Shown: piece by piece, positions 1,657 to 64,000 of the stretch | Numbering within the stretch: the first letter of the stretch is position 1 | Layout: every line of letters starts with the position of its first letter | Source: Pseudomonadota bacterium | GTDB taxonomy: Bacteria; Bdellovibrionota; Bdellovibrionia; Bdellovibrionales; JACTMU01 | Length of the DNA stretch: 64,000 nt | Direction: 5' to 3' | NCBI GenBank assembly: GCA_014584465.1 | Contig: JACTMU010000079.1 | Span: 8,065-72,064, forward strand | Notes under the pieces: generated by a model | Seen by the model: only the letters and a program-made list of their open reading frames with translations | Told to the model about the DNA's origin: nothing | Databases searched by the model: none | Made by a program: the position numbers and the translations under genes

Positions 1657-2273
1657 TGAATCATCTCCGAAAGAAGATTCCAGATTTTGGACTGCGAATC
1701 TTCCATTTTAAATTTGAGATCTTTGATGCTCAGAAGCTCGCTCTTTTCTTCACCAATTCGTGTGATCCCAAGTGGATCTAAGAGTTTCATCTGTGCTTCC
1801 AGCGACTTCCCATCTCGAGCGAGAAGATACTGCTGCCACTCGCTGTAGAAACGCTCCTCCTTCCTCATTGCAGGCGCATAGGGCAACACGCAATAGGGGT
1901 TGCGCAACAACAACTTCGCCTTTGAGGTGTCGAAGTAACGATGGGGTTCTTCTCCCACAATCATCGTCACTCGACTCTCCCAGCTCCTTTCAACGTGGTT
2001 GAAGACCCACTCAAGAGTTTCATTGCGGGCCTCAATCACCACAATCTGAGCTCTAGAACACTTTCTCAATAGAGCAAGAACATGATATCCACAACCGAGG
2101 CCCAAGACAAAGAGCGTCCTTTGTTTGCCCATGTAGGCCTCATCGTTGCAAATCGGTTTTTGATTCTCAATCCAACTTTGCGCTTGAGAAACGGGATCGT
2201 TGCGGGAAGCCATCAAAGTCCCGTCCAACTTGAAGATCCAGTGACCAGATCGAGAGTGACTGCTTTGAATCAT
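1653..2273 (-). CDS. Hypothetical protein with a Rossmann-like GLGCGYH motif. Function unknown; possibly methyltransferase- or MptE-like.
   Basis: 206-aa ORF with 4-nt overlaps to both neighbours, suggesting an operon. Contains FVLGLGCGYHVLALL followed by VVIEA. Confidence 0.6.
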   Translation of the reverse strand: MIQSSHSRSGHWIFKLDGTLMASRNDPVSQAQSWIENQKPICNDEAYMGKQRTLFVLGLGCGYHVLALLRKCSRAQIVVIEARNETLEWVFNHVERSWESRVTMIVGEEPHRYFDTSKAKLLLRNPYCVLPYAPAMRKEERFYSEWQQYLLARDGKSLEAQMKLLDPLGITRIGEEKSELLSIKDLKFKMEDSQSKIWNLLSEMIQ

Positions 2274-3394
2274 CCTACTGGTTGCCCCCGTGTAAGTTTG
2301 ATCTGCTCCTCAATAAGTCGACACAACTTGACTCCCCCTTCAATGTTTGGATCAAGAGCCAAAACCCTCTCCATTTCGATCAAAGCTTCGCTCAAGCGCC
2401 CCGCCAAAACAAAGACCTTTGCAAGCAAGAAGGCGATCTCCACGTCGTCACCGGACGACTCAAGGTAGACCTTCAACCGATCGATCACTAAGACCACCCT
2501 TTCCCCAGTGGTCGCCCACTCTGCAAAGAGTTTCAACGCCGTCACATTGAACGAGTTGAAATCCAGGGCTCTCTCCAAATTGGCAATTGCAAGATCACCA
2601 TCGCCCAGTTGATGGTGAATGAGCGCAAGCCCTACCCACGCTTTGTCATTTTTGGGATTGATCTGGAGTGCTTCACGAAAATGTTTGAGCGCTTCAACAT
2701 AAGATTCACGTTGAATTTCCAAGGTCCCATAGTTCACCCGAAGTGTGTCTGAGTTGGGGTCGATCGTATGGGCTCGATTGTAGTACTCCTCGGCCTGCGC
2801 AAAGTCCCCTTCTCGAAGAACAAGATTTCCAAGATTCTTGTAGATATCAAAGAGGATCGGATGAGCATCTTCAATCACCTCAAGAGCCCTGAGGTAGTAC
2901 TCCTTGGCCTGCACATCATGGTTCATCAAATAGTGCGATTCTGCGACAAGACTGAGCGTCACCATGTCAGGTTGAATCTCACAAAGCGCCAAATAACAGG
3001 TCAGCGCTTCATCCAACTTACCCATTTTCGTGAAGCAAAATCCCATCCACCGAATGGCCTCTCTCTCATAAGGATCAACGTCGAGGACTCGTCCCAAAAG
3101 ATTTTGAGCAAGCCCATACTCACCACTTTGGACGAGAAGAAGAGCATTCTTGAGATAGATGGATTCAAGTGTTGCAACTTCGATCTTCCCATCAATCTCT
3201 TGGTCCAGCTCTCGATCAAATTGGTCCAGGTACTTTTGTGAAAGCTCAAGCGGAAGGGCTGGACCTCCAACACCGTCTTCTCTACTTTGACCTTCTCCCT
3301 TTTTCTCATGCACTTCCACCTCCGCTCTGCCATTTGCTCTGCGACTCTTTCTACTCAATTCCAACTGAATTTGATCTCGATCCATAAACTTCAA
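2270..3394 (-). CDS. TPR repeat protein
   Basis: 374-aa ORF with repeated A..Y...G/A..A...Y..AL..P 34-residue-like units, for example EALKHFREALQINPKNDKAW and AEEYYNRAHTIDPNSD. Confidence 0.75.
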   Translation of the reverse strand: MKFMDRDQIQLELSRKSRRANGRAEVEVHEKKGEGQSREDGVGGPALPLELSQKYLDQFDRELDQEIDGKIEVATLESIYLKNALLLVQSGEYGLAQNLLGRVLDVDPYEREAIRWMGFCFTKMGKLDEALTCYLALCEIQPDMVTLSLVAESHYLMNHDVQAKEYYLRALEVIEDAHPILFDIYKNLGNLVLREGDFAQAEEYYNRAHTIDPNSDTLRVNYGTLEIQRESYVEALKHFREALQINPKNDKAWVGLALIHHQLGDGDLAIANLERALDFNSFNVTALKLFAEWATTGERVVLVIDRLKVYLESSGDDVEIAFLLAKVFVLAGRLSEALIEMERVLALDPNIEGGVKLCRLIEEQIKLTRGQPVG

Positions 3395-3448
3395 CCACCT
3401 TCGAACCCCGATTCGGGTTTTGAACTCATATGCCTTTGATGAGAAAGA

Positions 3449-3463
3449 GCAACTCGAGTGCCA
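3449..3463 (-). promoter_or_regulatory. Sigma-54 (-24/-12) promoter for the TPR / Rossmann-like / GT9 operon
   Basis: The minus strand reads TGGCACTCGAGTTGC, an exact TGGCAC-N5-TTGC match. It sits about 55 nt upstream of the ATG at 3394. Confidence 0.6.
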
Positions 3464-3710
3464 ACACCGACTTTAGGTGAGATGATCCGGTGAGATAGAG
3501 TCCAAAACTCATGCAGCCGGAAGAGAGCCTATTTGACGAGGCACTCCGTCACCTCGATTCGCCAAAGAGTTGACTTTTCAATTTGGTACTTCGTCAAAGA
3601 TTTGACGATTGAAACTCTGTCAAGATCGACAGCATGAGGTCCGGGTTGAATCGGCAGATTCATTGTTGGCGATGCCCAGATCTCTAGGTTTTATCTTTGG
3701 ACAGAGCTCC

Positions 3711-5175: not shown

Positions 5176-5931
5176 ATGCTAAAGAAATTAAAGAGCCTTT
5201 TACAAGGTGGAGAAGAAGAAAAGTCCCAAGACAACTTGACGCACCATGAAGGAGAACGAAATTCTCGAAGAGAGCCTCGAGTTCGCCTTGATGGGGGGCC
5301 GATTCAGTTTCACCGGACAAGTGATGATAAGCCACTTGAAATTTACAATCTATCTGAGTCGGGAATCGGACTTAGCTTTGCACAAATGCAACCTCCCCCA
5401 AAACCAGGTTCTCAACTTGGAGGACGATTTACGATTGCTTCGACTGAGTTCGCCGTTGTTTGTGAAGTGGTCCATGTCACCGACCCCATTGTGGGATGCA
5501 GGCTTCTCAATCGATCCGAGGAGTTGAAGCATGCCATCAAGAAGGCCTTTGAACTCGAACTTAGAGCTCACAATTTGGTCAAAATTCGCCCCGATGTGCT
5601 TGCACCTCGTAGCGATGGAACTCCCTACTATTTTCAAGGATCTCATAAGGAAGAACTCTTCTTTGTCGTTCAAGACAAGAAGATCATCTCATTGAACCTC
5701 ACCTTTGCACCTCACTCCGTTGAGTGGAGTCATGAAAAGGGTTTGAGGGCAGGAAAGATTGTTCAACTTGCGAAACTTCGCGTGACCGATTCGAGCCACT
5801 CCAACCCGATTGACTATTTTGATCCAATTCCAAATGAGCTCTTATCCCAAGCTCGCAATTTCATCAATAACGTTGATTTTCTCTCATTTTCTCATAAGAG
5901 GGATCTTTTTGAGATTTTAAAAAATGTCTAA
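5176..5931 (+). CDS. PilZ domain protein (c-di-GMP receptor)
   Basis: PilZ signature RREPRVRL (RxxxR) followed by YNLSESGIGL (D/NxSxxG). Confidence 0.7.
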   Translation: MLKKLKSLLQGGEEEKSQDNLTHHEGERNSRREPRVRLDGGPIQFHRTSDDKPLEIYNLSESGIGLSFAQMQPPPKPGSQLGGRFTIASTEFAVVCEVVHVTDPIVGCRLLNRSEELKHAIKKAFELELRAHNLVKIRPDVLAPRSDGTPYYFQGSHKEELFFVVQDKKIISLNLTFAPHSVEWSHEKGLRAGKIVQLAKLRVTDSSHSNPIDYFDPIPNELLSQARNFINNVDFLSFSHKRDLFEILKNV

Positions 5932-42079: not shown

Positions 42080-42094
42080 GCAATCCCCGTGCCA
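42080..42094 (-). promoter_or_regulatory. Sigma-54 promoter of the flgF-flgG-flgA-flgH-flgI operon
   Basis: The minus strand reads TGGCACGGGGATTGC, an exact TGGCACG-N4-TTGC match. It lies 22-36 nt upstream of the flgF ATG, with the SD GGAGGGA in between. Confidence 0.65.
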
Positions 42095-42224: not shown

Positions 42225-43577
42225 CTACTTCCCATCGACGGGAAACTCGACGGCCATCAATGCCTTGCGAAAGGTCCCAACGGTGTGATCCTTTGTGTAT
42301 CGGAACTGTCGTACGAACTGATTGAACCCCGCCTTCTCCGGCTCTGCAAAGGTCGTAAATTTGACCAGATCGTGAGCCACAATGAAGAGTGCCGCAAGAG
42401 GTGCAATGTGATGCCCCGTAAGCCCCTTTGGAAACCCTGTACCATCAGGTCTTTCATGATGCTGAGACACAATCAGATCCACATCAGGAGGAACCTCTTT
42501 CATGTTGCGAATCATGGTCGCCGCGGCCAGGGGATGACCCTTGAACGTCTCCACATCTTCATTTGAAAGAGTCGCTGATTTTTGTTGCAGCTCCTCCAAA
42601 GTATCAATCTCAGAGAGCATGCCACCTCGCAGATGAATGTCATGAAAAAAGGCTGCCAGTGACAGTTTATAAAATGTGGATTCTGAGGGCCACTCAAGCT
42701 TCGCGGCCAAAGCACATGCCACGTGCGCTGTCGCAATGGAATGAAACGAAAAATAGGACCCCGCCTGATCCCGAATCATCGAATAGATCTCCTTCAATTG
42801 AGGGTCTTTACCTACACTCTGAACGGTCATATCCACTGCAGCTTTCGCAATCTTTTGAACCTCTGGACTAAAGCCTAGCTGAGAATGAAGTTCTGAAACC
42901 ACTTCGGTGATCGCCGCGGCCGTGATTGCCCGCTCAAACCGTGACCCCTTCTCGGTTAAGACCATCGCAGTGATCTTCTCTTGAAATTGTCCGATAAATC
43001 CGGCAACTTCCTCCATCTTCAGATAGAAGTAGTCGATCTTCTTTCTCCCCTGATACTTATCAAGATCTTCCTGCCCAAAAACTCGACCTTTTCGAAACAT
43101 CTTGACATATTTGATCTGAGAAAGTCGGATGTAGACGTCGGCTTCCAAAGGGATCACCTTCAAAAGAAGCTCCGTCTTGATCCGGCAAAATGAGTCATCA
43201 CTTTGTCGATCCTCGATAGCTCCTGATTCAATCGACCTCTCAATGAGATCCACAATCTCCCCAAGTTCTTTAAAAGAGGTGACCTCTCCAAGTTTGACGA
43301 GGTCAGGAAAGGCCTGAGAACCACTTGCAGCCTTTCCTTGCCCTAGGACGAGTATGTACGGAATCTTGCCTTCGACCGAGAGAAGGTACTTGAGAAGTTT
43401 GGTTCCATCAATCCCCTCCTGACAGAGGATCAACTGGACGGCGTTGTCTTCTAGAAGATGATCGACTGCTTGCACATAGTTTGTAACCCAATGCACTTTG
43501 CCATGAAATTTTCCTTCCAAGTTAAAGCGCGCCATCTCCCAAAGTTCAAACTTATCATGCAAAACCAATATTTCCAT
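42225..43577 (-). CDS. HD-GYP domain c-di-GMP phosphodiesterase with a degenerate receiver-like N-terminus
   Basis: Contains AAFFHDIHL, KGHP and HHERPDGTGFPKGL (HD-GYP signature). Confidence 0.85.
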   Translation of the reverse strand: MEILVLHDKFELWEMARFNLEGKFHGKVHWVTNYVQAVDHLLEDNAVQLILCQEGIDGTKLLKYLLSVEGKIPYILVLGQGKAASGSQAFPDLVKLGEVTSFKELGEIVDLIERSIESGAIEDRQSDDSFCRIKTELLLKVIPLEADVYIRLSQIKYVKMFRKGRVFGQEDLDKYQGRKKIDYFYLKMEEVAGFIGQFQEKITAMVLTEKGSRFERAITAAAITEVVSELHSQLGFSPEVQKIAKAAVDMTVQSVGKDPQLKEIYSMIRDQAGSYFSFHSIATAHVACALAAKLEWPSESTFYKLSLAAFFHDIHLRGGMLSEIDTLEELQQKSATLSNEDVETFKGHPLAAATMIRNMKEVPPDVDLIVSQHHERPDGTGFPKGLTGHHIAPLAALFIVAHDLVKFTTFAEPEKAGFNQFVRQFRYTKDHTVGTFRKALMAVEFPVDGK

Positions 43578-57834: not shown

Positions 57835-60800
57835 CTACTTTCCACTTATGGAGTATGCCCACACGGTCACTCCCGATACAACCCCATCTGTGAAGATGCA
57901 GGGCTGAAGAAGAGCTCCTTCACCCTGAAATGAACCCATATTGGGCGCATAGATGCAGGCCTCACCACTTTCGCACAGGGAGTTGTTGTTTCCGATCTGA
58001 TCCCCATTGATTTCGATGGCATGAAGTAAGAATGTCTTTGAAGCCATGGTCGTAGAATCGCTCCCACTCACTCCGTCTGGACAGCTGCTCCCAGAGGTAA
58101 AGGTCGCGTTGGACGCAGTTCCAGTGACACTGCGATTGTGGAGTGGCTTTCCCGTAACCACACGCCAGTCCCAAATGCGACATGTACCCGAGATGCAAGG
58201 ACCTTGATGGGACGAATTTGGAAAAGTTAGCCCATCCATCCCAAACCCCCTAAAAAACGAGTCAAAGTTCATCCAATCCACAATTGAAGCGTAGGAGGAC
58301 GTGCCGGCCGGTGCGCTCCCGTTTGTTGTGTCCGAACTTACCTTGCCTAGAAAAGTTGACGAGAGATCTGTTGCAATCGTTGTGACCGATCCAGAAGCAC
58401 ACGCAGTGTCCAATCCGCCACCACTGCAACCATTTGCAGTGCTTCCTTTGTGAAAGAATCCAGTGAAGCTCACCGACTGACTGCCACTTAGATCCACCGC
58501 AAAGGAGCCGTGATTGGCTGAGACCGTATCATGGAAGACATTGCCGGTACCACCACCGCCTGTGGGCGACTGAATTCCCTTATCCGTGTTCATAGTCACC
58601 AGCGAGTGAACATAGGTCCCATTCACACTCCCCGAAAGGTAGATCCCATTGTAGGTGTTGTTCACGGCCGTCACATATTGGATGATGTTGTCGGTCAACG
58701 ATGTGGTCCCATCGAGGAAAATTCCCGCATCGCTACCCCCAAACAGCGTTGCCTGACTTATGATGTTGCCCGAAGAAGCAATATAAATCGCCGAACTGGC
58801 ATTTGCACTGACTGCAACCTTTATATTTGAGATCGTGAGACCCGAGAGCATGTTGTTGGGGCCTAAGACCTTTAGACCATGGCTCGAACTGCCTGCATTC
58901 ATCTGAGACAGGCGAACCTCTTCCAAACGATTGAAGCTAGAGGAACCCGTGAGCATAAGAAGCGTCTGGCTTATCGAACTTAAATCAGTATTTCTACTCA
59001 CCGAAAAATCGTGCAAGATATTTTTACTGCCTGAAACTCGAGCCCCTCCCATCTTTCCCACACCCTCCGCATTTGATGATGTGATCAGATTCGAGTTGGA
59101 TAAGTAGCCGGTGGTACCCAGTTCAATGGCTGCCATTGAGTTGCTATTGTTCTTGAGATCCTTGATTATGACTTTATGAAGCCGACTGAATTTGGTCCCT
59201 ACGAGATTCATTCCAACCACAAGAGGCCAGGTCCCATTCGTCCCGTTGATCTGCGTTTCCAACCACAAGAAGTTTTGATTGGCCGAACAGATCATCTCTG
59301 CCAGCGCCGAGGAACTCGCGTAACAATCGCCCGATGCAAAGTTGTTGGTCGTCGCACCTGTTGATCGAAGGATCCCACCCCCAAGCGAGACCACTGCAAC
59401 ACGGTGAGCTGAAATCTTAATTCCCAGAGTCGTAAGTCCACCTGGTGGAACGAAGTAGATTGTTCCCGCACTGTTAAGATCGGTAAGACTTGAAGGGTTT
59501 GCTCCGAGAGCGGAGATAGGATTTGTCCACCAACACGTTGGAACACTCTGTCCCACGACGTTTCCACCCTGGTGAATCGTCACGCTGTTCGTCTTCCATG
59601 TGCCTCCACTTGCAATCAGATCGCCAAGTCCAACACCTGGCTTCAAGCCCTTTGAAAAGAAGGTCGCTGTTCCTGAGACATCTTCACAAAACCAATCCAA
59701 CGCATTCAAACTCTCAACCAGTGTGAGACCTGAGCAAGATTCAAAACCTGCCACCTCCACCATACGTTTTTCACCACCATGAATGCAGCCATTGATTTCT
59801 CCATAGTATCCGACCTCGGTCCCATCACAAGAGGCATTGGGTTGTTCGTGAACCTCGCTGTTTGAATCTGTGAATCTTACATAACTATTCCAATCACTAT
59901 TCCCGACATAAACTGGCTCAACCAGAACCGTTACAGGAGCGCTCACCACCAAATCGTGGTTCGCCCCAAGGGAGCCAGCACCCGACACTGCCGGTAAAAT
60001 CAAATTTGCACTGTTGCCAGCATGGTCCACCAGGGTCCCCGAGAGGGCGAGCGAACCCGAAGTCAGGTAATCAAGATCTGAGGAAAATTCCCCCTCTGCG
60101 ATCGTGTATTGAAAAGTGAGTGTACTGGAGCCAGACCCTGAAACGTAGGAGGCAGCTCCTGAAGAGTTGAGTGCCAAGATCATCGATCCACTTAAGGTCA
60201 CATCTTCACTGAAATGCACGTTGATCTCGATGTCATTTCCTGCTCCGTAAGTGCCATCGGAATTGGTCGACGTGACCTGTGTGACGGTCGGTGCTGTGGA
60301 GTCGTAGGTTCTCAACAGCGGATCAGATGCGAGATTTCCATTCCCCGCCAGGTCGACCAACATCGCCTCGGCAACAGAAATGCTCACACTTCCCTCAGAC
60401 GTTGGCGTTACAACTGCCGCAAATGAAGTATGGTCTGTGGTCGTCAGCGAACTCAACGTCCCACCAACCGCAGTGAGGTCACTTAGTGAAAAGCCACTCA
60501 CCTCTTCGGACGCCACAATGGAAATGGCAAAAGACCCATTGACCGCAGAGTCGCTGGTGGAACTCAAAGAGAGAGTGGGGGCCGTCGTATCAAGAACGTA
60601 GATCGCAACCGAAGAGCTGCAGGTTGAACTCCCATGATCGTTGGATTGCCTGCCACTAAAGAGATGAGACCCCTCAGACAACGAGGAGATGTTAAATAGA
60701 ACCGAAGCCCCTGATGCGACTTGCGTGCCGATTTCGGTTTCACATCCACCACCTAGATAGAGGTGGACTGTGTCTCCTTGAGAGACACCATTGACCTGAA

Positions 60801-61827
60801 TCGTAGGACTCACGACGTAATTTGGAGAAGTTGAAGGAGAATAGAGCACCACCGAAGTTGGCGGGGTAGGCGGAGCAGATGCCGTGGGTGGATTGGGATC
60901 AGGTGCCGGAGGTGATGTCTCAGGAATTTCACTCGAATCATCATCAACAATGTCAATCAAAACTGAACTTGTAAGGAGTCGAGAATTGATCGTATTTGAA
61001 AAAACGACACTGAAAGATTCCAAAGCTTCTGCCACGAGGTCATCCACAAGAGAAATTGAGATCTGTTTCAAAGTTTCCCCAGGGGCAAAATCAAGTTGCC
61101 CTGAACCACTCAAGAAATCAGATGAAGCAATGGCGGTTCCATCCACACTCTTCCATCCAATGGATACCACCGACGAACTCACCCGGTCCAGAGCCACACT
61201 TAAAATGACATTTCCAGTTTCACCTGACGGTTGTTCTAAAACAGAAATCGAGACCTGTGGCAACACTTCATGGTCAGAAATGCCAAATTGAAGCCAGTTA
61301 CAGTCATCAAGAATCTTCGAACCCACGATCGACGCCGTAATATCCACAGATTGGTCTGCAGCTCGAACATCCACAGTTGCCTCTCCCACCACCACTGGGG
61401 CCGAGAGATCTGTTCGGTCCATCTTTCCAGGGGCACAACGATAGTTGGCCGAGGTCCCTTGGCCTATAAGCACAATGCGTCGTCGATCCCCTGAAGTGAC
61501 TTCTAAAGAGACTGTCTCCCCTGAGAAATGGGGACCAGAGATCACTTCGGGCTTTAGATGGACAGCACCTTGAATATCCAAACAAGAACCTTTCGAAGCT
61601 TCTGGATACTCAACCGCGACCAGCCAGCAACGAATCTCCTCCATACCTTGAGGCGCAACGACGCCCCACTTTGACTTTGTGGAGGACTGAAGGCGTCGAA
61701 TCTTTTGATCGTTGGTACGAGCAATCTGATCGGGAAGTCGAATGGAAATGGTTGACGAGGTCTCCTTCTTTTGGCAGGAGACAATCCCTACAAACAAAAC
61801 AAGTCCCAATAGAGCGCGTGTCACCAA
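57835..61827 (-). CDS. Giant secreted surface protein: Calx-beta, Ig-like repeats and a beta-helix region
   Basis: 1330 aa with a signal peptide. The Calx-beta-like segment reads SVDGTAIASSDFLSGSGQLDFAPGETLKQISISLVDD. It also has a Pro-rich linker, Ig-like repeats (AGN.N...) and a Ser/Gly/Asn-rich beta-helix-like C-terminal half. Confidence 0.8.
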   Translation of the reverse strand: MVTRALLGLVLFVGIVSCQKKETSSTISIRLPDQIARTNDQKIRRLQSSTKSKWGVVAPQGMEEIRCWLVAVEYPEASKGSCLDIQGAVHLKPEVISGPHFSGETVSLEVTSGDRRRIVLIGQGTSANYRCAPGKMDRTDLSAPVVVGEATVDVRAADQSVDITASIVGSKILDDCNWLQFGISDHEVLPQVSISVLEQPSGETGNVILSVALDRVSSSVVSIGWKSVDGTAIASSDFLSGSGQLDFAPGETLKQISISLVDDLVAEALESFSVVFSNTINSRLLTSSVLIDIVDDDSSEIPETSPPAPDPNPPTASAPPTPPTSVVLYSPSTSPNYVVSPTIQVNGVSQGDTVHLYLGGGCETEIGTQVASGASVLFNISSLSEGSHLFSGRQSNDHGSSTCSSSVAIYVLDTTAPTLSLSSTSDSAVNGSFAISIVASEEVSGFSLSDLTAVGGTLSSLTTTDHTSFAAVVTPTSEGSVSISVAEAMLVDLAGNGNLASDPLLRTYDSTAPTVTQVTSTNSDGTYGAGNDIEINVHFSEDVTLSGSMILALNSSGAASYVSGSGSSTLTFQYTIAEGEFSSDLDYLTSGSLALSGTLVDHAGNSANLILPAVSGAGSLGANHDLVVSAPVTVLVEPVYVGNSDWNSYVRFTDSNSEVHEQPNASCDGTEVGYYGEINGCIHGGEKRMVEVAGFESCSGLTLVESLNALDWFCEDVSGTATFFSKGLKPGVGLGDLIASGGTWKTNSVTIHQGGNVVGQSVPTCWWTNPISALGANPSSLTDLNSAGTIYFVPPGGLTTLGIKISAHRVAVVSLGGGILRSTGATTNNFASGDCYASSSALAEMICSANQNFLWLETQINGTNGTWPLVVGMNLVGTKFSRLHKVIIKDLKNNSNSMAAIELGTTGYLSNSNLITSSNAEGVGKMGGARVSGSKNILHDFSVSRNTDLSSISQTLLMLTGSSSFNRLEEVRLSQMNAGSSSHGLKVLGPNNMLSGLTISNIKVAVSANASSAIYIASSGNIISQATLFGGSDAGIFLDGTTSLTDNIIQYVTAVNNTYNGIYLSGSVNGTYVHSLVTMNTDKGIQSPTGGGGTGNVFHDTVSANHGSFAVDLSGSQSVSFTGFFHKGSTANGCSGGGLDTACASGSVTTIATDLSSTFLGKVSSDTTNGSAPAGTSSYASIVDWMNFDSFFRGFGMDGLTFPNSSHQGPCISGTCRIWDWRVVTGKPLHNRSVTGTASNATFTSGSSCPDGVSGSDSTTMASKTFLLHAIEINGDQIGNNNSLCESGEACIYAPNMGSFQGEGALLQPCIFTDGVVSGVTVWAYSISGK

Positions 61828-62223
61828 ACATTCCCCTTTTCAGTTATCTTCTCTACGTCTTATCGGAAAGTCTTGCGGTTCTGAAGATCACTTGGAAAAA
61901 TATCTTTTGAGAGTTCTCAAAACGTGTCACGACTTGAATCAATCTGACTCAAGGACCCAATCGTTCCTTTTAGGATTCCATCCAACACTCAACTAAACCT
62001 AGAATCGCGCTCCATTCAATCATCCATTCTTGGTTCAAAATTGATGGCCATGTTGTCTCAGAAAGAGAACCCACACAAAGGAAGCATCGGCAAATCCACA
62101 GTAGGCTGGTTTGAAGGTGGTTGGCACCTGGATCCGAAAATCCTCTCTTTGGGAATTCGTCCTAGATTTTGGACCGACGATTCGTAGAAATGTTCTCTAA
62201 ATGGAATTGAGGCGTTAAATTAG

Positions 62224-62239
62224 TGGCACCGTATTTGCT
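62224..62239 (+). promoter_or_regulatory. Sigma-54 (-24/-12) promoter upstream of the heptapeptide ORF
   Basis: TGGCACCGTATTTGCT is an exact TGGCAC-N5-TTGC match. It lies about 50 nt upstream of the ATG at 62288. Confidence 0.6.
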
Positions 62240-62287
62240 TGAAGCTCATCGTTCGTTCAAACCGGGCGACGTTGCTTAGGAGGCACT

Positions 62288-62311
62288 ATGAACTCAACAG
62301 CACGCAATTAG
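62288..62311 (+). CDS. mccA: Microcin C-like heptapeptide precursor, MNSTARN
   Basis: ATG AAC TCA ACA GCA CGC AAT TAG, preceded by AGGAGG (62278..62283, 4-nt spacer). The peptide ends in Asn, as E. coli MccA (MRTGNAN) does. The ORF sits directly upstream of an MccB-like gene and is too short for the ORF track. Confidence 0.7.
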   Translation: MNSTARN

Positions 62312-62317
62312 ATGTAT

Positions 62318-62361
62318 TGGGAGCTTGAGTCCAGCAAAGGATCGATCAAGCTCCCATTTTT
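62318..62361 (+). terminator. Intrinsic terminator / attenuator between the heptapeptide ORF and the mccB-like gene
   Basis: TGGGAGCTTGA-N17-TCAAGCTCCCA forms a perfect 11-bp stem followed by TTTTT. It starts 7 nt after the TAG. Confidence 0.8.
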
Positions 62362-62444
62362 GAGGGACTCTGTTTCCAAAAGAGAAAACTGCAAGACCCA
62401 ACCATGTGGCATTTGCTTGCCAATACCGACGAGGGGGATGATCT

Positions 62445-63518
62445 ATGGATAAGCATAAAGTACTTCAACTGGCCAGGTACGTCCGATCTGGTGTTCAAAA
62501 CGGCATACTCTATTTTGGATTTGGATCCGTTCAACAAGCCATCCGTTGTCCAGAAATGCAACTTCAGGTTGCTGAAGTGGCCAAGCGTTGGGTGACCCCC
62601 TCTACGATCCTAGAGATCCAGAATCATCTGAGTGACTTAGGTGATTCCAAAGATTACAAACCCGCAATCGACTTCTTGATTGAACATGATTTTGTGAAGC
62701 CGGTCGAGTTTTTTGACCAATCTCACAGGTTCAGCCGTAGCCACCTGTTCTATTCAATGTACAAGGGAAACCCTCTTGAAATACAACGAATGATCTCTGA
62801 CAAATCCGTTGCGATCTTAGGATGTGGAGGAATTGGCAATATTGTGAGTGTCAATTTGGCAACCGCTGGGATCAATCGACTCATTCTAGTTGATCACGAC
62901 GAGATCGAGCTTTCGAATTTGTCAAGACAGATATTGTTCGTCGAAGACGACGTGGCAAAGAAAAAGGTGGATGTATTAAGTCATGAGCTAAGACGCCGTA
63001 ATTCTCAATTAGAAATCACCACCCAGTGTTCTCAAATTTCAACTTATGAAGATATTGAAAAGATAGGCCACCCCGACTTGATTGTTCTCAGTGCAGATGC
63101 GGGAGATATCTTCAATATTGTCAACCACTACGCTCTAAAGAACAACATTCCTTATCTTAATGTCGGTTATGTAGAGGATATCGCTGTGTTCGGACCATTT
63201 GTCATTCCAGGAGTGACAGGCTGTATGTTCTGTCAGGATACAACAGCAACAGTTGATGAGAGTGGTCACAATCCACTCACACCCTATCTAAAGCACATCA
63301 ACGAAAGCTATCAAGCCCCGTCCGTTGGGCCCGTCAACATGCTTGCTTCCTCATTAGCCACCTTGGATATTCTAAAGTATTTTGGAAAATTTGGCTCTAT
63401 TCTGTCGCAAAATCGCCGTGTCGGACTTTGGAGTCACGATCTACACTTTGAGTATCAGGATTACCAACGCAATCCAGAATGCAGGCAATGTGGCTTTCTT
63501 AACAATACAACAAGGTAA
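62445..63518 (+). CDS. mccB: MccB-like peptide C-terminal adenylyltransferase (ThiF/MoeB E1-like with an N-terminal peptide-clamp domain)
   Basis: 357 aa. Nucleotide-binding VAILGCGGIGNIVSVNLATAGINRLILVDHDEIELSNLSRQILF. Zinc CxxC pairs GCMFCQ and ECRQCG. YLNVGYVEDIAVFGPF, and an N-terminal extension of about 115 aa that ThiF and MoeB lack. Confidence 0.85.
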   Translation: MDKHKVLQLARYVRSGVQNGILYFGFGSVQQAIRCPEMQLQVAEVAKRWVTPSTILEIQNHLSDLGDSKDYKPAIDFLIEHDFVKPVEFFDQSHRFSRSHLFYSMYKGNPLEIQRMISDKSVAILGCGGIGNIVSVNLATAGINRLILVDHDEIELSNLSRQILFVEDDVAKKKVDVLSHELRRRNSQLEITTQCSQISTYEDIEKIGHPDLIVLSADAGDIFNIVNHYALKNNIPYLNVGYVEDIAVFGPFVIPGVTGCMFCQDTTATVDESGHNPLTPYLKHINESYQAPSVGPVNMLASSLATLDILKYFGKFGSILSQNRRVGLWSHDLHFEYQDYQRNPECRQCGFLNNTTR

Positions 63519-63530
63519 AGGTCGGCGGCA

Positions 63531-64000
63531 ATGAAAACAGTCCATCAGATTGTAAGACGATACTATTGTGTTAGCGCTCTCTTTGAGATGGCGAGAATGG
63601 GAATAGGGGCCACAAGTGTTCTCTTTATGCTCCATCATAATGTTACACTTTCAGATCTTGCATCCATCAAGATGATACAATGCTTTACCATGCTCATCGC
63701 GGAAATGCCTACCGGTCTATTCGCAGATGCATTTGGCCGAAAGAAGAGTATTGTATTGGCAAGTGTTTGCTCGCTACTTTCATTCACAATGTATTTACAA
63801 GCATCTGGATTTTCTGGCTTTTGTATCGCTGACATCTTCAATGCACTTGCGATATCTTTTTGGTCCGGAGCTTTTGATGCTCACGCCATCGAAACACTTG
63901 ACCAAAAGGGAGTCCCTCGGTCATTCTTAAACGTCTTCTTTTCTAGGGTGGCGAGCTATGACGCTGTAGGGGTCATGGTGGGCGGATTCGTTGGAGGCAT
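63531..64000 (+). CDS. MFS transporter, partial (runs off the window). Candidate MccC-like exporter / immunity protein.
   Basis: Manual translation from the ATG at 63531 stays open to the window end: MKTVHQIVRRYYCVSALFEMARMG...MPTGLFADAFGRKKSIVLA (MFS motif A-like), with successive transmembrane segments. Confidence 0.7.
   Translation, partial: MKTVHQIVRRYYCVSALFEMARMGIGATSVLFMLHHNVTLSDLASIKMIQCFTMLIAEMPTGLFADAFGRKKSIVLASVCSLLSFTMYLQASGFSGFCIADIFNALAISFWSGAFDAHAIETLDQKGVPRSFLNVFFSRVASYDAVGVMVGGFVGG

What the first reader, a model, noticed from the sequence alone, without database searches (positions are those of the whole stretch)
62224..62239. The mccA-like ORF appears to be driven by a consensus sigma-54 promoter
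TGGCACCGTATTTGCT matches TGGCAC-N5-TTGC exactly and sits about 50 nt upstream of the heptapeptide ATG.

Ten fixed bases give roughly 0.1 expected chance hits across both strands of a 64-kb window. I found three exact hits (3449, 42080, 62224). Each is correctly oriented and lies 20-60 nt upstream of a start codon.

The E. coli mcc operon uses a sigma-70/CRP-dependent promoter. Enhancer-dependent sigma-54 control of a microcin C-type cluster would be unusual. It also implies a dedicated bEBP and an activating signal.
Basis: partly seen in the sequence, partly recalled or inferred. Interest (0 to 1): 0.6.

Follow-up and report, generated by a model that had tools for sequence, protein, structure and literature searches.

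The report
Sigma-54 promoter before microcin C-like operon
A gene cluster for a microcin C-type "Trojan horse" antibiotic in a Bdellovibrio-related bacterium is preceded by a textbook sigma-54 promoter that recurs in its closest relatives, so its production is probably switched on by an enhancer-binding activator, unlike the CAP-cAMP-dependent E. coli cluster.

Summary
TGGCACcgtatTTGC lies at 62224-62238(+), 49 nt before the ATG (62288) of a 7-codon ORF, MNSTARN. After the ORF come a terminator-like hairpin, a full-length MccB homologue and an MFS exporter.

The window holds three exact motif hits against 0.12 expected. All three are intergenic and co-oriented with the gene downstream; one precedes flgF.

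All four closest MccB relatives (51-60% identity) carry a GG-N10-GC element 30-49 nt before their own heptapeptide ORF, although one of them scores only 7/10. Strong motifs also occur on other MccB branches: two Oligoflexales MAGs (one of them weak), a Planctomycetota MAG and a "Proteobacteria" MAG.

Across 56 non-redundant heptapeptide loci:
- 10/10 matches: 4 sense, 0 antisense, 0 inside mccB.
- At least 9/10: 6 sense, 1 antisense, 0 inside mccB.

Loci from Chlamydiae, Bartonella and Pantoea/Brenneria, and loci with the E. coli peptide, lack the motif.

No sigma-70-like promoter was found upstream of mccA. No enhancer-binding protein gene lies in the window or beside any related locus, so the activator is probably encoded elsewhere. 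I found no paper linking microcin C clusters to sigma-54.

Verdict: a real, conserved, probably functional sigma-54 promoter. It is a new regulatory variant of a known system and has not been tested experimentally.

The parts
62224..62239 (+). Sigma-54 (-24/-12) promoter element TGGCACcgtatTTGCT. GG is at 62225-62226 and GC at 62237-62238. The predicted transcription start is near 62250.
   Evidence: Exact match to the pattern. It is intergenic and conserved at the equivalent place in L001, L164, L002, L163, L055, L018 and L003. The start position is inferred from the usual 12-nt distance, not mapped.
62278..62283 (+). Shine-Dalgarno AGGAGG, 4 nt before the mccA ATG
   Evidence: Read from the sequence. 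GGAGG or GGGAGG stands at the same place in the related loci.
62288..62311 (+). mccA-like ORF encoding MNSTARN plus the TAG stop
   Evidence: M-x5-N heptapeptide ORFs lie upstream of the MccB homologue in 56 non-redundant loci, including the E. coli peptide MRTGNAN.
62319..62361 (+). Terminator-like hairpin. The arms are GGGAGCTTGA and TCAAGCTCCC, followed by A and TTTTT. It lies between mccA and mccB.
   Evidence: RNA fold. A GC-rich hairpin directly after mccA is present in all nine motif-bearing loci. E. coli has a terminator in the same place (PMC4231749).
62445..63518 (+). mccB homologue, 357 aa: a ThiF/E1-like peptide adenylyltransferase with an N-terminal peptide-binding domain
   Evidence: Pfam ThiF 4.5e-38. 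Residues 9-350 align with residues 8-350 of E. coli MccB 3H5N at E 6.5e-75. The four Cys of the two CxxC pairs are invariant in 38 homologues.
63531..64000 (+). MFS transporter gene (mccC-like exporter), cut by the end of the window
   Evidence: Pfam MFS_1 at 1.6e-4, below the gathering score, on the 156-aa fragment. Full-length MFS genes follow mccB in L002, L163, L165 and L167.
62115..62129 (+). Palindrome AGGTGgttggCACCT, about 120-135 nt upstream of the predicted start. It is only a candidate activator site.
   Evidence: A 5+5 palindrome is not statistically unusual, and it is not shared with related loci.
42080..42094 (-). Second exact sigma-54 motif, TGGCACggggaTTGC, 21 nt before the flgF ATG (42058). 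It heads a run of flagellar rod and ring genes.
   Evidence: FlgF TIGR02490 1.8e-57; FlgI further downstream.
3449..3463 (-). Third exact sigma-54 motif, TGGCACtcgagTTGC, before the TPR-repeat gene 2270-3394(-)

Best explanation
The motif is a functional sigma-54 (RpoN) promoter. RNA polymerase carrying sigma-54 binds GG (62225-62226) and GC (62237-62238) as a closed complex. It starts transcription near 62250 only when an ATP-hydrolysing enhancer-binding protein, encoded elsewhere in the genome and responding to an unknown signal, remodels that complex.

The transcript has a leader of about 38 nt with a strong ribosome-binding site and the 7-codon mccA (MNSTARN). As in E. coli, the hairpin with its T-run after mccA probably stops most transcripts. 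That would give an abundant short mccA RNA, with a read-through fraction expressing mccB and the MFS exporter.

MccB would then adenylate the C-terminal Asn to give a peptide-nucleotide inhibitor of aspartyl-tRNA synthetase.

What is shown: the motif, its position, its statistics, its conservation in relatives, and the identity of the cluster. What is inferred: the start site, rpoN and bEBP dependence, terminator function and the chemistry of the product.
For: - **Motif in the window.** It is an exact 10/10 consensus. There are three hits against 0.12 expected, all in the ~10% of the window that is intergenic and all co-oriented with the downstream gene. One heads the flgF rod operon, a classic sigma-54 target in many bacteria.
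- **Conservation within the window's clade.** On the MccB tree the window groups with L001, L163, L002 and L164. All five carry GG-N10-GC 30-49 nt before their heptapeptide ATG, with scores of 10, 10, 7, 8 and 9 out of 10. In the 5-sequence alignment only T-GG, TGC and a few other columns are invariant upstream of the ATG.
- **Recurrence on other branches.** L018 scores 10/10, L003/L087 10/10, L055 9/10 and L056 8/10.
- **Controls.** In 56 non-redundant heptapeptide loci, motifs of 9/10 or better occur in 6 loci on the sense strand, 1 on the antisense strand and 0 inside mccB. For 10/10 the counts are 4, 0 and 0. The background rate over 2.5 Mb predicts 0.04 exact hits in the roughly 11 kb of upstream sequence scanned.
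- **No alternative promoter.** No sigma-70-like promoter of 9/12 or better lies in 61700-62600. Loci without the motif show clear TTGACA-N17-TAxxxT promoters instead.
- **Sigma-54 in the lineage.** RadA places the window in Bdellovibrionota, with best hits of 60-65% identity to Bdellovibrionales and Bdellovibrio. rpoN is reported in B. bacteriovorus HD100 (bd0843, PMC3464611) and Bacteriovorax marinus (PMC3526173).
- **Cluster identity.**
Against: - There are no expression data.
- rpoN is not in the window, so its presence in this genome is inferred from the lineage and from the three consensus sites.
- No bEBP gene is in the window or in any related locus. The probe was validated as PF00158 and gave no hit in 168 sources totalling 1.32 Mb.
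- No upstream activator site is shared between loci.
- Motifs scoring 7-8/10 are no more frequent than in the controls. L163 and L056 therefore count for little on their own, and L002 counts only because it aligns with the L164 site.
- Taxon labels of the MAG contigs may be unreliable.
Confidence: 0.75

Rival explanations
1. The motif is a chance or relic sequence. mccA is transcribed from an unrecognised sigma-70-type, or other sigma, promoter in the 460-nt intergenic region.
For: Sigma-54 consensus matches can be silent. No bEBP, rpoN or clear enhancer was found locally. The promoter scanner uses a strict E. coli-type consensus, which may not fit this phylum.
Against: An exact hit is expected 0.12 times per window. 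The same element recurs at the same place in 5 of 5 clade members and on other branches, with 10/10 counts of 4 sense, 0 antisense and 0 intragenic. Loci that lack it show obvious sigma-70 hexamers, whereas this one shows none.
Confidence: 0.1
2. The promoter is a real sigma-54 promoter but produces essentially only the short mccA RNA. mccB and the exporter are transcribed separately, from a start in 62362-62444.
For: A strong hairpin with a T-run follows mccA. A -24/-12-like sequence, TGGCATttgcTTGC, lies at 62405-62418 just before mccB.
Against: That second motif has a spacer one nucleotide too short for sigma-54. No sigma-70-like site was found up to 62600. In E. coli one promoter serves both transcripts by partial read-through (PMC4231749).
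Confidence: 0.12
3. The conserved TGGCA...TTGC sequence is the operator of another DNA-binding regulator, or part of a leader RNA structure, rather than a sigma-54 promoter.
For: The motif has partial dyad character (TGGCA/TTGC-like). No activator was found nearby.
Against: The conserved positions are exactly the sigma-54 contact bases at the exact 10-nt spacing, while the 5-nt spacer and the flanks vary freely. The same consensus heads flgF in the same window. Rfam finds no RNA family there.
Confidence: 0.04

Closest known systems
E. coli plasmid mccABCDEF operon (microcin C / C7 / C51)
   Same: Both have a 7-codon mccA ending in Asn with a strong ribosome-binding site, a terminator hairpin between mccA and mccB, and an MccB adenylyltransferase (38-39% identical over its full length). 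An MFS exporter follows (PMC4231749).
   Different: The E. coli Pmcc promoter is CAP-cAMP dependent, starts 29 nt before mccA and was transcribed in vitro with sigma-70 holoenzyme. Here the only recognisable promoter is a -24/-12 sigma-54 element. The peptide sequence differs (MNSTARN against MRTGNAN). No mccD, mccE or mccF is visible before the window ends. The locus is chromosomal, in a Bdellovibrionota genome.
Canonical sigma-54 promoters with bEBP activation (for example glnAp2/NtrC, or the flagellar rod and hook genes of Vibrio, Pseudomonas and Campylobacter)
   Same: It has the TGGCAC-N5-TTGC consensus and an intergenic position tens of nucleotides before the start codon. A sister site stands before flgF in the same window.
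   Different: The target is a ribosomal-peptide antibiotic cluster. No activator gene or recognisable enhancer lies nearby.
Sigma-54/bEBP control of secondary-metabolite clusters in myxobacteria (recalled from my own knowledge; not found in the paper library)
   Same: Antibiotic production is placed under enhancer-dependent transcription in a predatory, formerly 'delta-proteobacterial' lineage.
   Different: Those are PKS/NRPS clusters with known bEBPs. Here the cluster is a minimal mccABC-type RiPP operon and the activator is unknown.

Membership tests
Sigma-54-dependent (-24/-12) promoter | GG and GC dinucleotides exactly 10 nt apart within TGGCAC-N5-TTGCW | tested here: met
   TGGCACcgtatTTGCT at 62224-62239, 10/10 fixed bases plus W=T.
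Sigma-54-dependent (-24/-12) promoter | Non-coding position, co-oriented with a gene and a short distance upstream of it | tested here: met
   The motif is intergenic and ends 49 nt before the mccA ATG.
Sigma-54-dependent (-24/-12) promoter | Conservation of the element at orthologous loci | tested here: met
   Present in 5 of 5 members of the window's MccB clade and on three other branches. Motifs of 9/10 or better: 6 loci sense, 1 antisense, 0 intragenic.
Sigma-54-dependent (-24/-12) promoter | The genome encodes sigma-54 (rpoN) | not testable with these tools
   No RpoN-box hit in the window, and the rest of the genome is not available. The lineage is Bdellovibrionota, members of which have rpoN.
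Sigma-54-dependent (-24/-12) promoter | A bEBP (AAA+ Sigma54_activat domain) and its upstream activating sequence | tested here: inconclusive
   No bEBP gene in the window or in 167 related loci. The probe was validated as PF00158 at 4.2e-66. Only weak candidate palindromes were found, and no motif is shared between loci. An activator encoded elsewhere is not excluded.
Sigma-54-dependent (-24/-12) promoter | Transcription starts about 12 nt after the GC element and depends on rpoN | not testable with these tools
   This needs 5'-RACE or dRNA-seq and an rpoN mutant.
Microcin C-type (mcc) peptide-nucleotide antibiotic cluster | Short precursor ORF, typically 7 codons, from Met to a C-terminal Asn, just upstream of mccB | tested here: met
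   MNSTARN at 62288-62311, 133 nt before mccB. The same arrangement is found in 56 non-redundant loci.
Microcin C-type (mcc) peptide-nucleotide antibiotic cluster | MccB: a ThiF/E1-like adenylyltransferase with an N-terminal peptide-binding domain | tested here: met
   Full-length alignment to E. coli MccB structures 3H5N, 3H5A and 6OM4, E about 1e-74. Pfam ThiF. Cys260, 263, 346 and 349 are invariant.
Microcin C-type (mcc) peptide-nucleotide antibiotic cluster | Exporter (MccC, MFS) downstream of mccB | tested here: met
   A fragment from 63531 to the window end gives weak MFS_1 and TetA(P)-like hits. Complete MFS genes follow mccB in relatives.
Microcin C-type (mcc) peptide-nucleotide antibiotic cluster | Intrinsic terminator between mccA and mccB | tested here: met
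   A hairpin closed by a 10-bp GC-rich outer stem, followed by a T5 run, at 62319-62361. Its function was not tested.
Microcin C-type (mcc) peptide-nucleotide antibiotic cluster | CAP-cAMP-dependent sigma-70 promoter, as in the E. coli operon. This is a feature of the type example, not of the family. | tested here: not met
   No sigma-70-like site in 61700-62600. A sigma-54 element stands there instead.
Microcin C-type (mcc) peptide-nucleotide antibiotic cluster | The product is a peptidyl-adenylate (or cytidylate) that inhibits Asp-tRNA synthetase | not testable with these tools
   This needs biochemistry.

The most novel reading that the evidence does not exclude
Enhancer-dependent sigma-54 transcription is a recurrent way of gating microcin C-type Trojan-horse antibiotics in Bdellovibrionota/Oligoflexia-like and a few other environmental bacteria, and it has been acquired independently several times. 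It would keep a self-toxic product fully off until a specific signal, such as a nutrient, prey or competitor cue, activates a bEBP encoded elsewhere. That gives the family a regulatory logic unlike the catabolite and stationary-phase control known from enterobacteria.
Probability: 0.5. Interest if true: 0.6.

Novelty: new variant of a known kind. Interest (0 to 1): 0.5.

Why it matters
Regulation of microcin C-like clusters is only known in detail for E. coli, where the promoter is CAP-cAMP dependent. Most of the hundreds of predicted clusters are silent or unstudied.

A sigma-54 promoter has very low basal activity and needs a signal-activated ATPase. Finding one conserved in front of mccA predicts an on/off, signal-specific mode of production.

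It also gives a practical handle. Supplying or activating the right bEBP, or swapping the promoter, could switch on these clusters in environmental, possibly predatory, bacteria.

Finally, it shows that promoter class can be replaced repeatedly while the mccA-terminator-mccB architecture stays fixed.

Tried and rejected
- **Nearby bEBP or rpoN.** I ran regex scans for GAFTGA, the Walker A motif, ESELFGH and the RpoN box. No hit appeared in the window or in any locus.
- **Shared upstream activator site.** Shared k-mers and palindromes across nine loci gave nothing convincing. The window palindromes at 61906-61921 and 62115-62129 are not enriched elsewhere in the window beyond chance. The repeat finder gave only one weak inverted repeat.
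- **Sigma-70 alternative.** No site was found.
- **Known RNA element in the leader.** Rfam gave no hit in the whole window. The folding z-score of the leader and spacer is unremarkable at -0.9.
- **Rest of the source contig.** The exact MccB is in the protein collection, on a 92-kb NCBI contig, but its contig is not in the lookup index. The genome is also not among the GTDB representatives scanned.
- **Low-stringency motif counts.** Scores of 7-8/10 are not above the antisense and intragenic controls, so I do not rely on them.
- **Extra relatives.** L168, L170 and L171 added no new sigma-54 cases. L169 has only 71 nt upstream of mccB and was not examined.
- **Literature.** 'microcin C' with sigma-54 or rpoN returned only incidental co-mentions. 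Two reviews or analyses of MccB-type clusters do not discuss sigma-54.

Full report
**1. The observation**

The sequence TGGCACCGTATTTGC occupies 62224-62238 on the + strand. The pattern TGGCAC-N5-TTGC has three exact matches in the 64-kb window: 3449(-), 42080(-) and 62224(+). Dinucleotide-preserving shuffles give a mean of 0.12, and none of 100 shuffles reached three.

Allowing one mismatch adds only three sites, for 6 in total against 3.45 expected. All three of these lie inside long ORFs. The three exact sites lie in the ~10% of the window that ORFs of 120 aa or more do not cover.

Each exact site points at the next gene:
- The 42080 site ends 21 nt before the ATG of a flgF homologue (TIGR02490, 1.8e-57). 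This gene heads a run of flagellar rod and ring genes.
- The 3449 site precedes a TPR-repeat gene.
- The 62224 site ends 49 nt before ATG 62288.

**2. What lies downstream**

AGGAGG (62278-62283) is followed four bases later by ATG AAC TCA ACA GCA CGC AAT TAG, which encodes MNSTARN (62288-62311).

Eight bases after the stop codon a hairpin begins, closed by a 10-bp GC-rich outer stem (GGGAGCTTGA/TCAAGCTCCC) and followed by A and TTTTT. It spans 62319-62361.

The 357-aa ORF at 62445-63518 hits Pfam ThiF at 4.5e-38. It aligns over residues 9-350 with residues 8-350 of the solved E. coli MccB at E 6.5e-75. This covers the N-terminal peptide-binding part, and the four cysteines are invariant in 38 homologues.

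An MFS transporter gene starts at 63531 and runs off the window.

This is the mccA-terminator-mccB-mccC layout of microcin C clusters. The E. coli layout and its terminator are described in PMC4231749.

**3. The organism**

The window also carries radA, a trehalose-phosphate synthase/phosphatase fusion, flagellar genes and a pilQ secretin. Downstream of pilQ on the same strand is a pilM homologue. It is therefore chromosomal.

RadA is at most 65% identical to anything in the protein collection. The named hits among the best matches are Bdellovibrionales, Bdellovibrionota and Bdellovibrio.

rpoN is reported for B. bacteriovorus HD100 (bd0843; PMC3464611) and for Bacteriovorax marinus (PMC3526173).

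**4.

I collected MccB homologues from three sources:
- the protein collection;
- one genome per species (L003-L082);
- metagenomes (L083-L162).

I also fetched contigs for the closest proteins.

Fifty-six non-redundant loci have an M-x5-N heptapeptide ORF just upstream of the MccB gene. Among them are loci encoding the E. coli peptide MRTGNAN.

A neighbour-joining tree of MccB groups the window with its four closest relatives. All five carry GG-N10-GC upstream of the peptide:

| Locus | MccB identity | Peptide | Motif | nt from motif to ATG |
|---|---|---|---|---|
| Window | - | MNSTARN | TGGCACcgtatTTGC | 49 |
| L001 | 60% | MNASVKN | TGGCACcctaaTTGC | 39 |
| L164 | 51% | MNASVKN | TGGCACcgctcGTGC | 30 |
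| L002 | 51% | MNASLKN | TGGCATcgctcGTGC | 30 |
| L163 | 51% | MNTVVKN | TGGTCTcgtccTTGC | 49 |

When these five upstream regions are aligned, only the T-GG and TGC blocks and a few isolated columns are invariant upstream of the ATG. That is the pattern expected of a sigma-54 promoter.

The motif also appears on other branches of the tree:
- L018, a 'Proteobacteria' MAG: 10/10, 81 nt before the ATG.
- L003/L087, a Planctomycetota MAG: 10/10, 93 nt.
- L055, an Oligoflexales MAG: 9/10, 49 nt.
- L056, an Oligoflexales MAG: 8/10, 63 nt.

**5. Controls**

| Motif score | Sense, 200 nt upstream | Antisense, same 200 nt | 200 nt inside mccB |
|---|---|---|---|
| 10/10 | 4 loci | 0 | 0 |
| 9/10 or better | 6 loci | 1 | 0 |
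| 8/10 or better | 8 loci | 3 | 7 |

The background rate of exact hits over 2.5 Mb of locus sequence predicts 0.04 in the roughly 11 kb of upstream sequence scanned.

The case therefore rests on the hits of 9/10 or better, plus L002, whose site aligns with that of L164. L163 and L056 are weak on their own.

Several groups of loci have no such motif, and many of them show clear TTGACA-N17-TAxxxT promoters:
- Chlamydiae
- Bartonella
- Pantoea and Brenneria
- Legionellaceae
- loci encoding the E. coli peptide

From general knowledge, several of those hosts do possess rpoN. The sigma-54 promoter therefore looks like a specific regulatory choice and not simply a consequence of the host having sigma-54.

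**6. Other promoter candidates and RNA elements**

The consensus scan finds no sigma-70-like site in 61700-62600. Rfam finds nothing in the window.

A second -24/-12-like string, TGGCATttgcTTGC at 62405-62418, has a spacer one base too short and is probably inactive.

**7. The activator**

A sigma-54 promoter needs a bEBP. Two searches found none:
- Motif scans for GAFTGA, the Walker A motif, ESELFGH and the RpoN box.
- tblastn with an NtrC central domain. The probe scores 4.2e-66 against PF00158.

Neither found a hit in the window or in any of the other 167 loci, 1.32 Mb in all.

The response regulator next to the L002 cluster has only a receiver domain.

No upstream sequence is shared among the motif-bearing loci. 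The palindromes at 62115-62129 and 61906-61921 are only candidates.

A cluster-linked, dedicated activator is therefore not supported. A bEBP encoded elsewhere is the likelier arrangement. The 1.7 kb downstream limit of the window leaves some room for doubt.

**8. Mechanism proposed**

Sigma-54 holoenzyme sits on the -24/-12 element as a closed complex. An activated bEBP drives open-complex formation, and transcription starts near 62250.

Ribosomes load on the strong ribosome-binding site and translate mccA. The hairpin with its T-run stops most transcripts, and read-through supplies MccB and the exporter.

The last two steps are inferred from E. coli (PMC4231749). They are also supported by the presence of a GC-rich hairpin right after mccA in all nine motif-bearing loci.

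**9. Comparison with what is known, and novelty**

The E. coli promoter Pmcc is CAP-cAMP dependent and starts 29 nt before mccA.

Full-text searches for 'microcin C' with sigma-54 or rpoN returned only incidental co-mentions. A bioinformatic survey and a 2025 review of MccB-type RiPPs do not mention sigma-54.

From my own knowledge, sigma-54/bEBP control of PKS/NRPS clusters is known in myxobacteria. The library search did not retrieve those papers.

The cluster type and the promoter type are both well known. Their combination, and its recurrence across several lineages, appears to be undescribed. I rate it a new variant of a known kind.

I put 0.75 confidence on the promoter being functional and sigma-54 dependent. 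Interest is 0.5: a solid, testable prediction that is not a conceptual surprise.

Noticed in passing
window 3592-3607 (intergenic, upstream of the TPR gene 2270-3394 on the - strand): A perfect 16-bp palindrome, CGTCAAATCTTTGACG, lies about 130 nt upstream of the exact sigma-54 motif at 3449-3463. This is the typical position for a bEBP enhancer. A 12-codon ORF (ATG at 3421) lies between the motif and the TPR start.
   Followed up: no
window 62405-62418: TGGCATttgcTTGC resembles a -24/-12 element but its spacer is one nucleotide short. It lies between the mccA terminator and the mccB start codon.
   Followed up: partly
window 61906-61921 and 62115-62129; L001 141-151: Two palindromes lie upstream of the mcc promoter: TTTGAGAgtTCTCAAA and AGGTGgttggCACCT. 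The 11-mer TTTTGAGAGTT of the first also abuts the -24 element in the closest relative, L001. Neither is statistically compelling.
   Followed up: partly
L006, L007, L012, L167, L170, L171 (Chlamydiae-type mcc loci), about 30-70 nt before mccA: These loci share a sigma-70-like TTGACA promoter followed by a conserved leader hairpin (cttgttgg...ccaacaag, then atctttgaaa) before mccA (MNTITKN, MNTISKN). This may be a conserved regulatory RNA or operator.
   Followed up: no
L001 229-270; L041 about 5763-5815: L001 has about three tandem copies of a ~14-nt unit (AGTTTTCAGTGACC) right after mccA. The Bartonella locus L041 has three tandem CATATCCCTCCCGCTGT units upstream of mccA.
   Followed up: no
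L163, L165, L167, L169-L171: Relatives carry mccB-MFS-GNAT acetyltransferase. L165 and L167 add a Peptidase_S66 (MccF-like) gene, which gives the full immunity set. L002 has only mccB-MFS followed by a 1409-aa protein. The window ends inside the MFS gene, so its immunity genes are unknown.
   Followed up: no
window 57835-61827 (- strand): A 1330-aa protein with Calx-beta and bacterial Ig-like (Big_12) domains is divergently oriented from the mcc cluster. It has a lipoprotein-like N-terminus and Ser/Thr/Gly-rich repeats, and is probably a surface adhesin.
   Followed up: no
window 42225-43577 (- strand): A 450-aa HD-GYP-type protein (HD_5) lies immediately upstream of the sigma-54-driven flgF operon. 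It may link c-di-GMP signalling to the flagellar genes.
   Followed up: no
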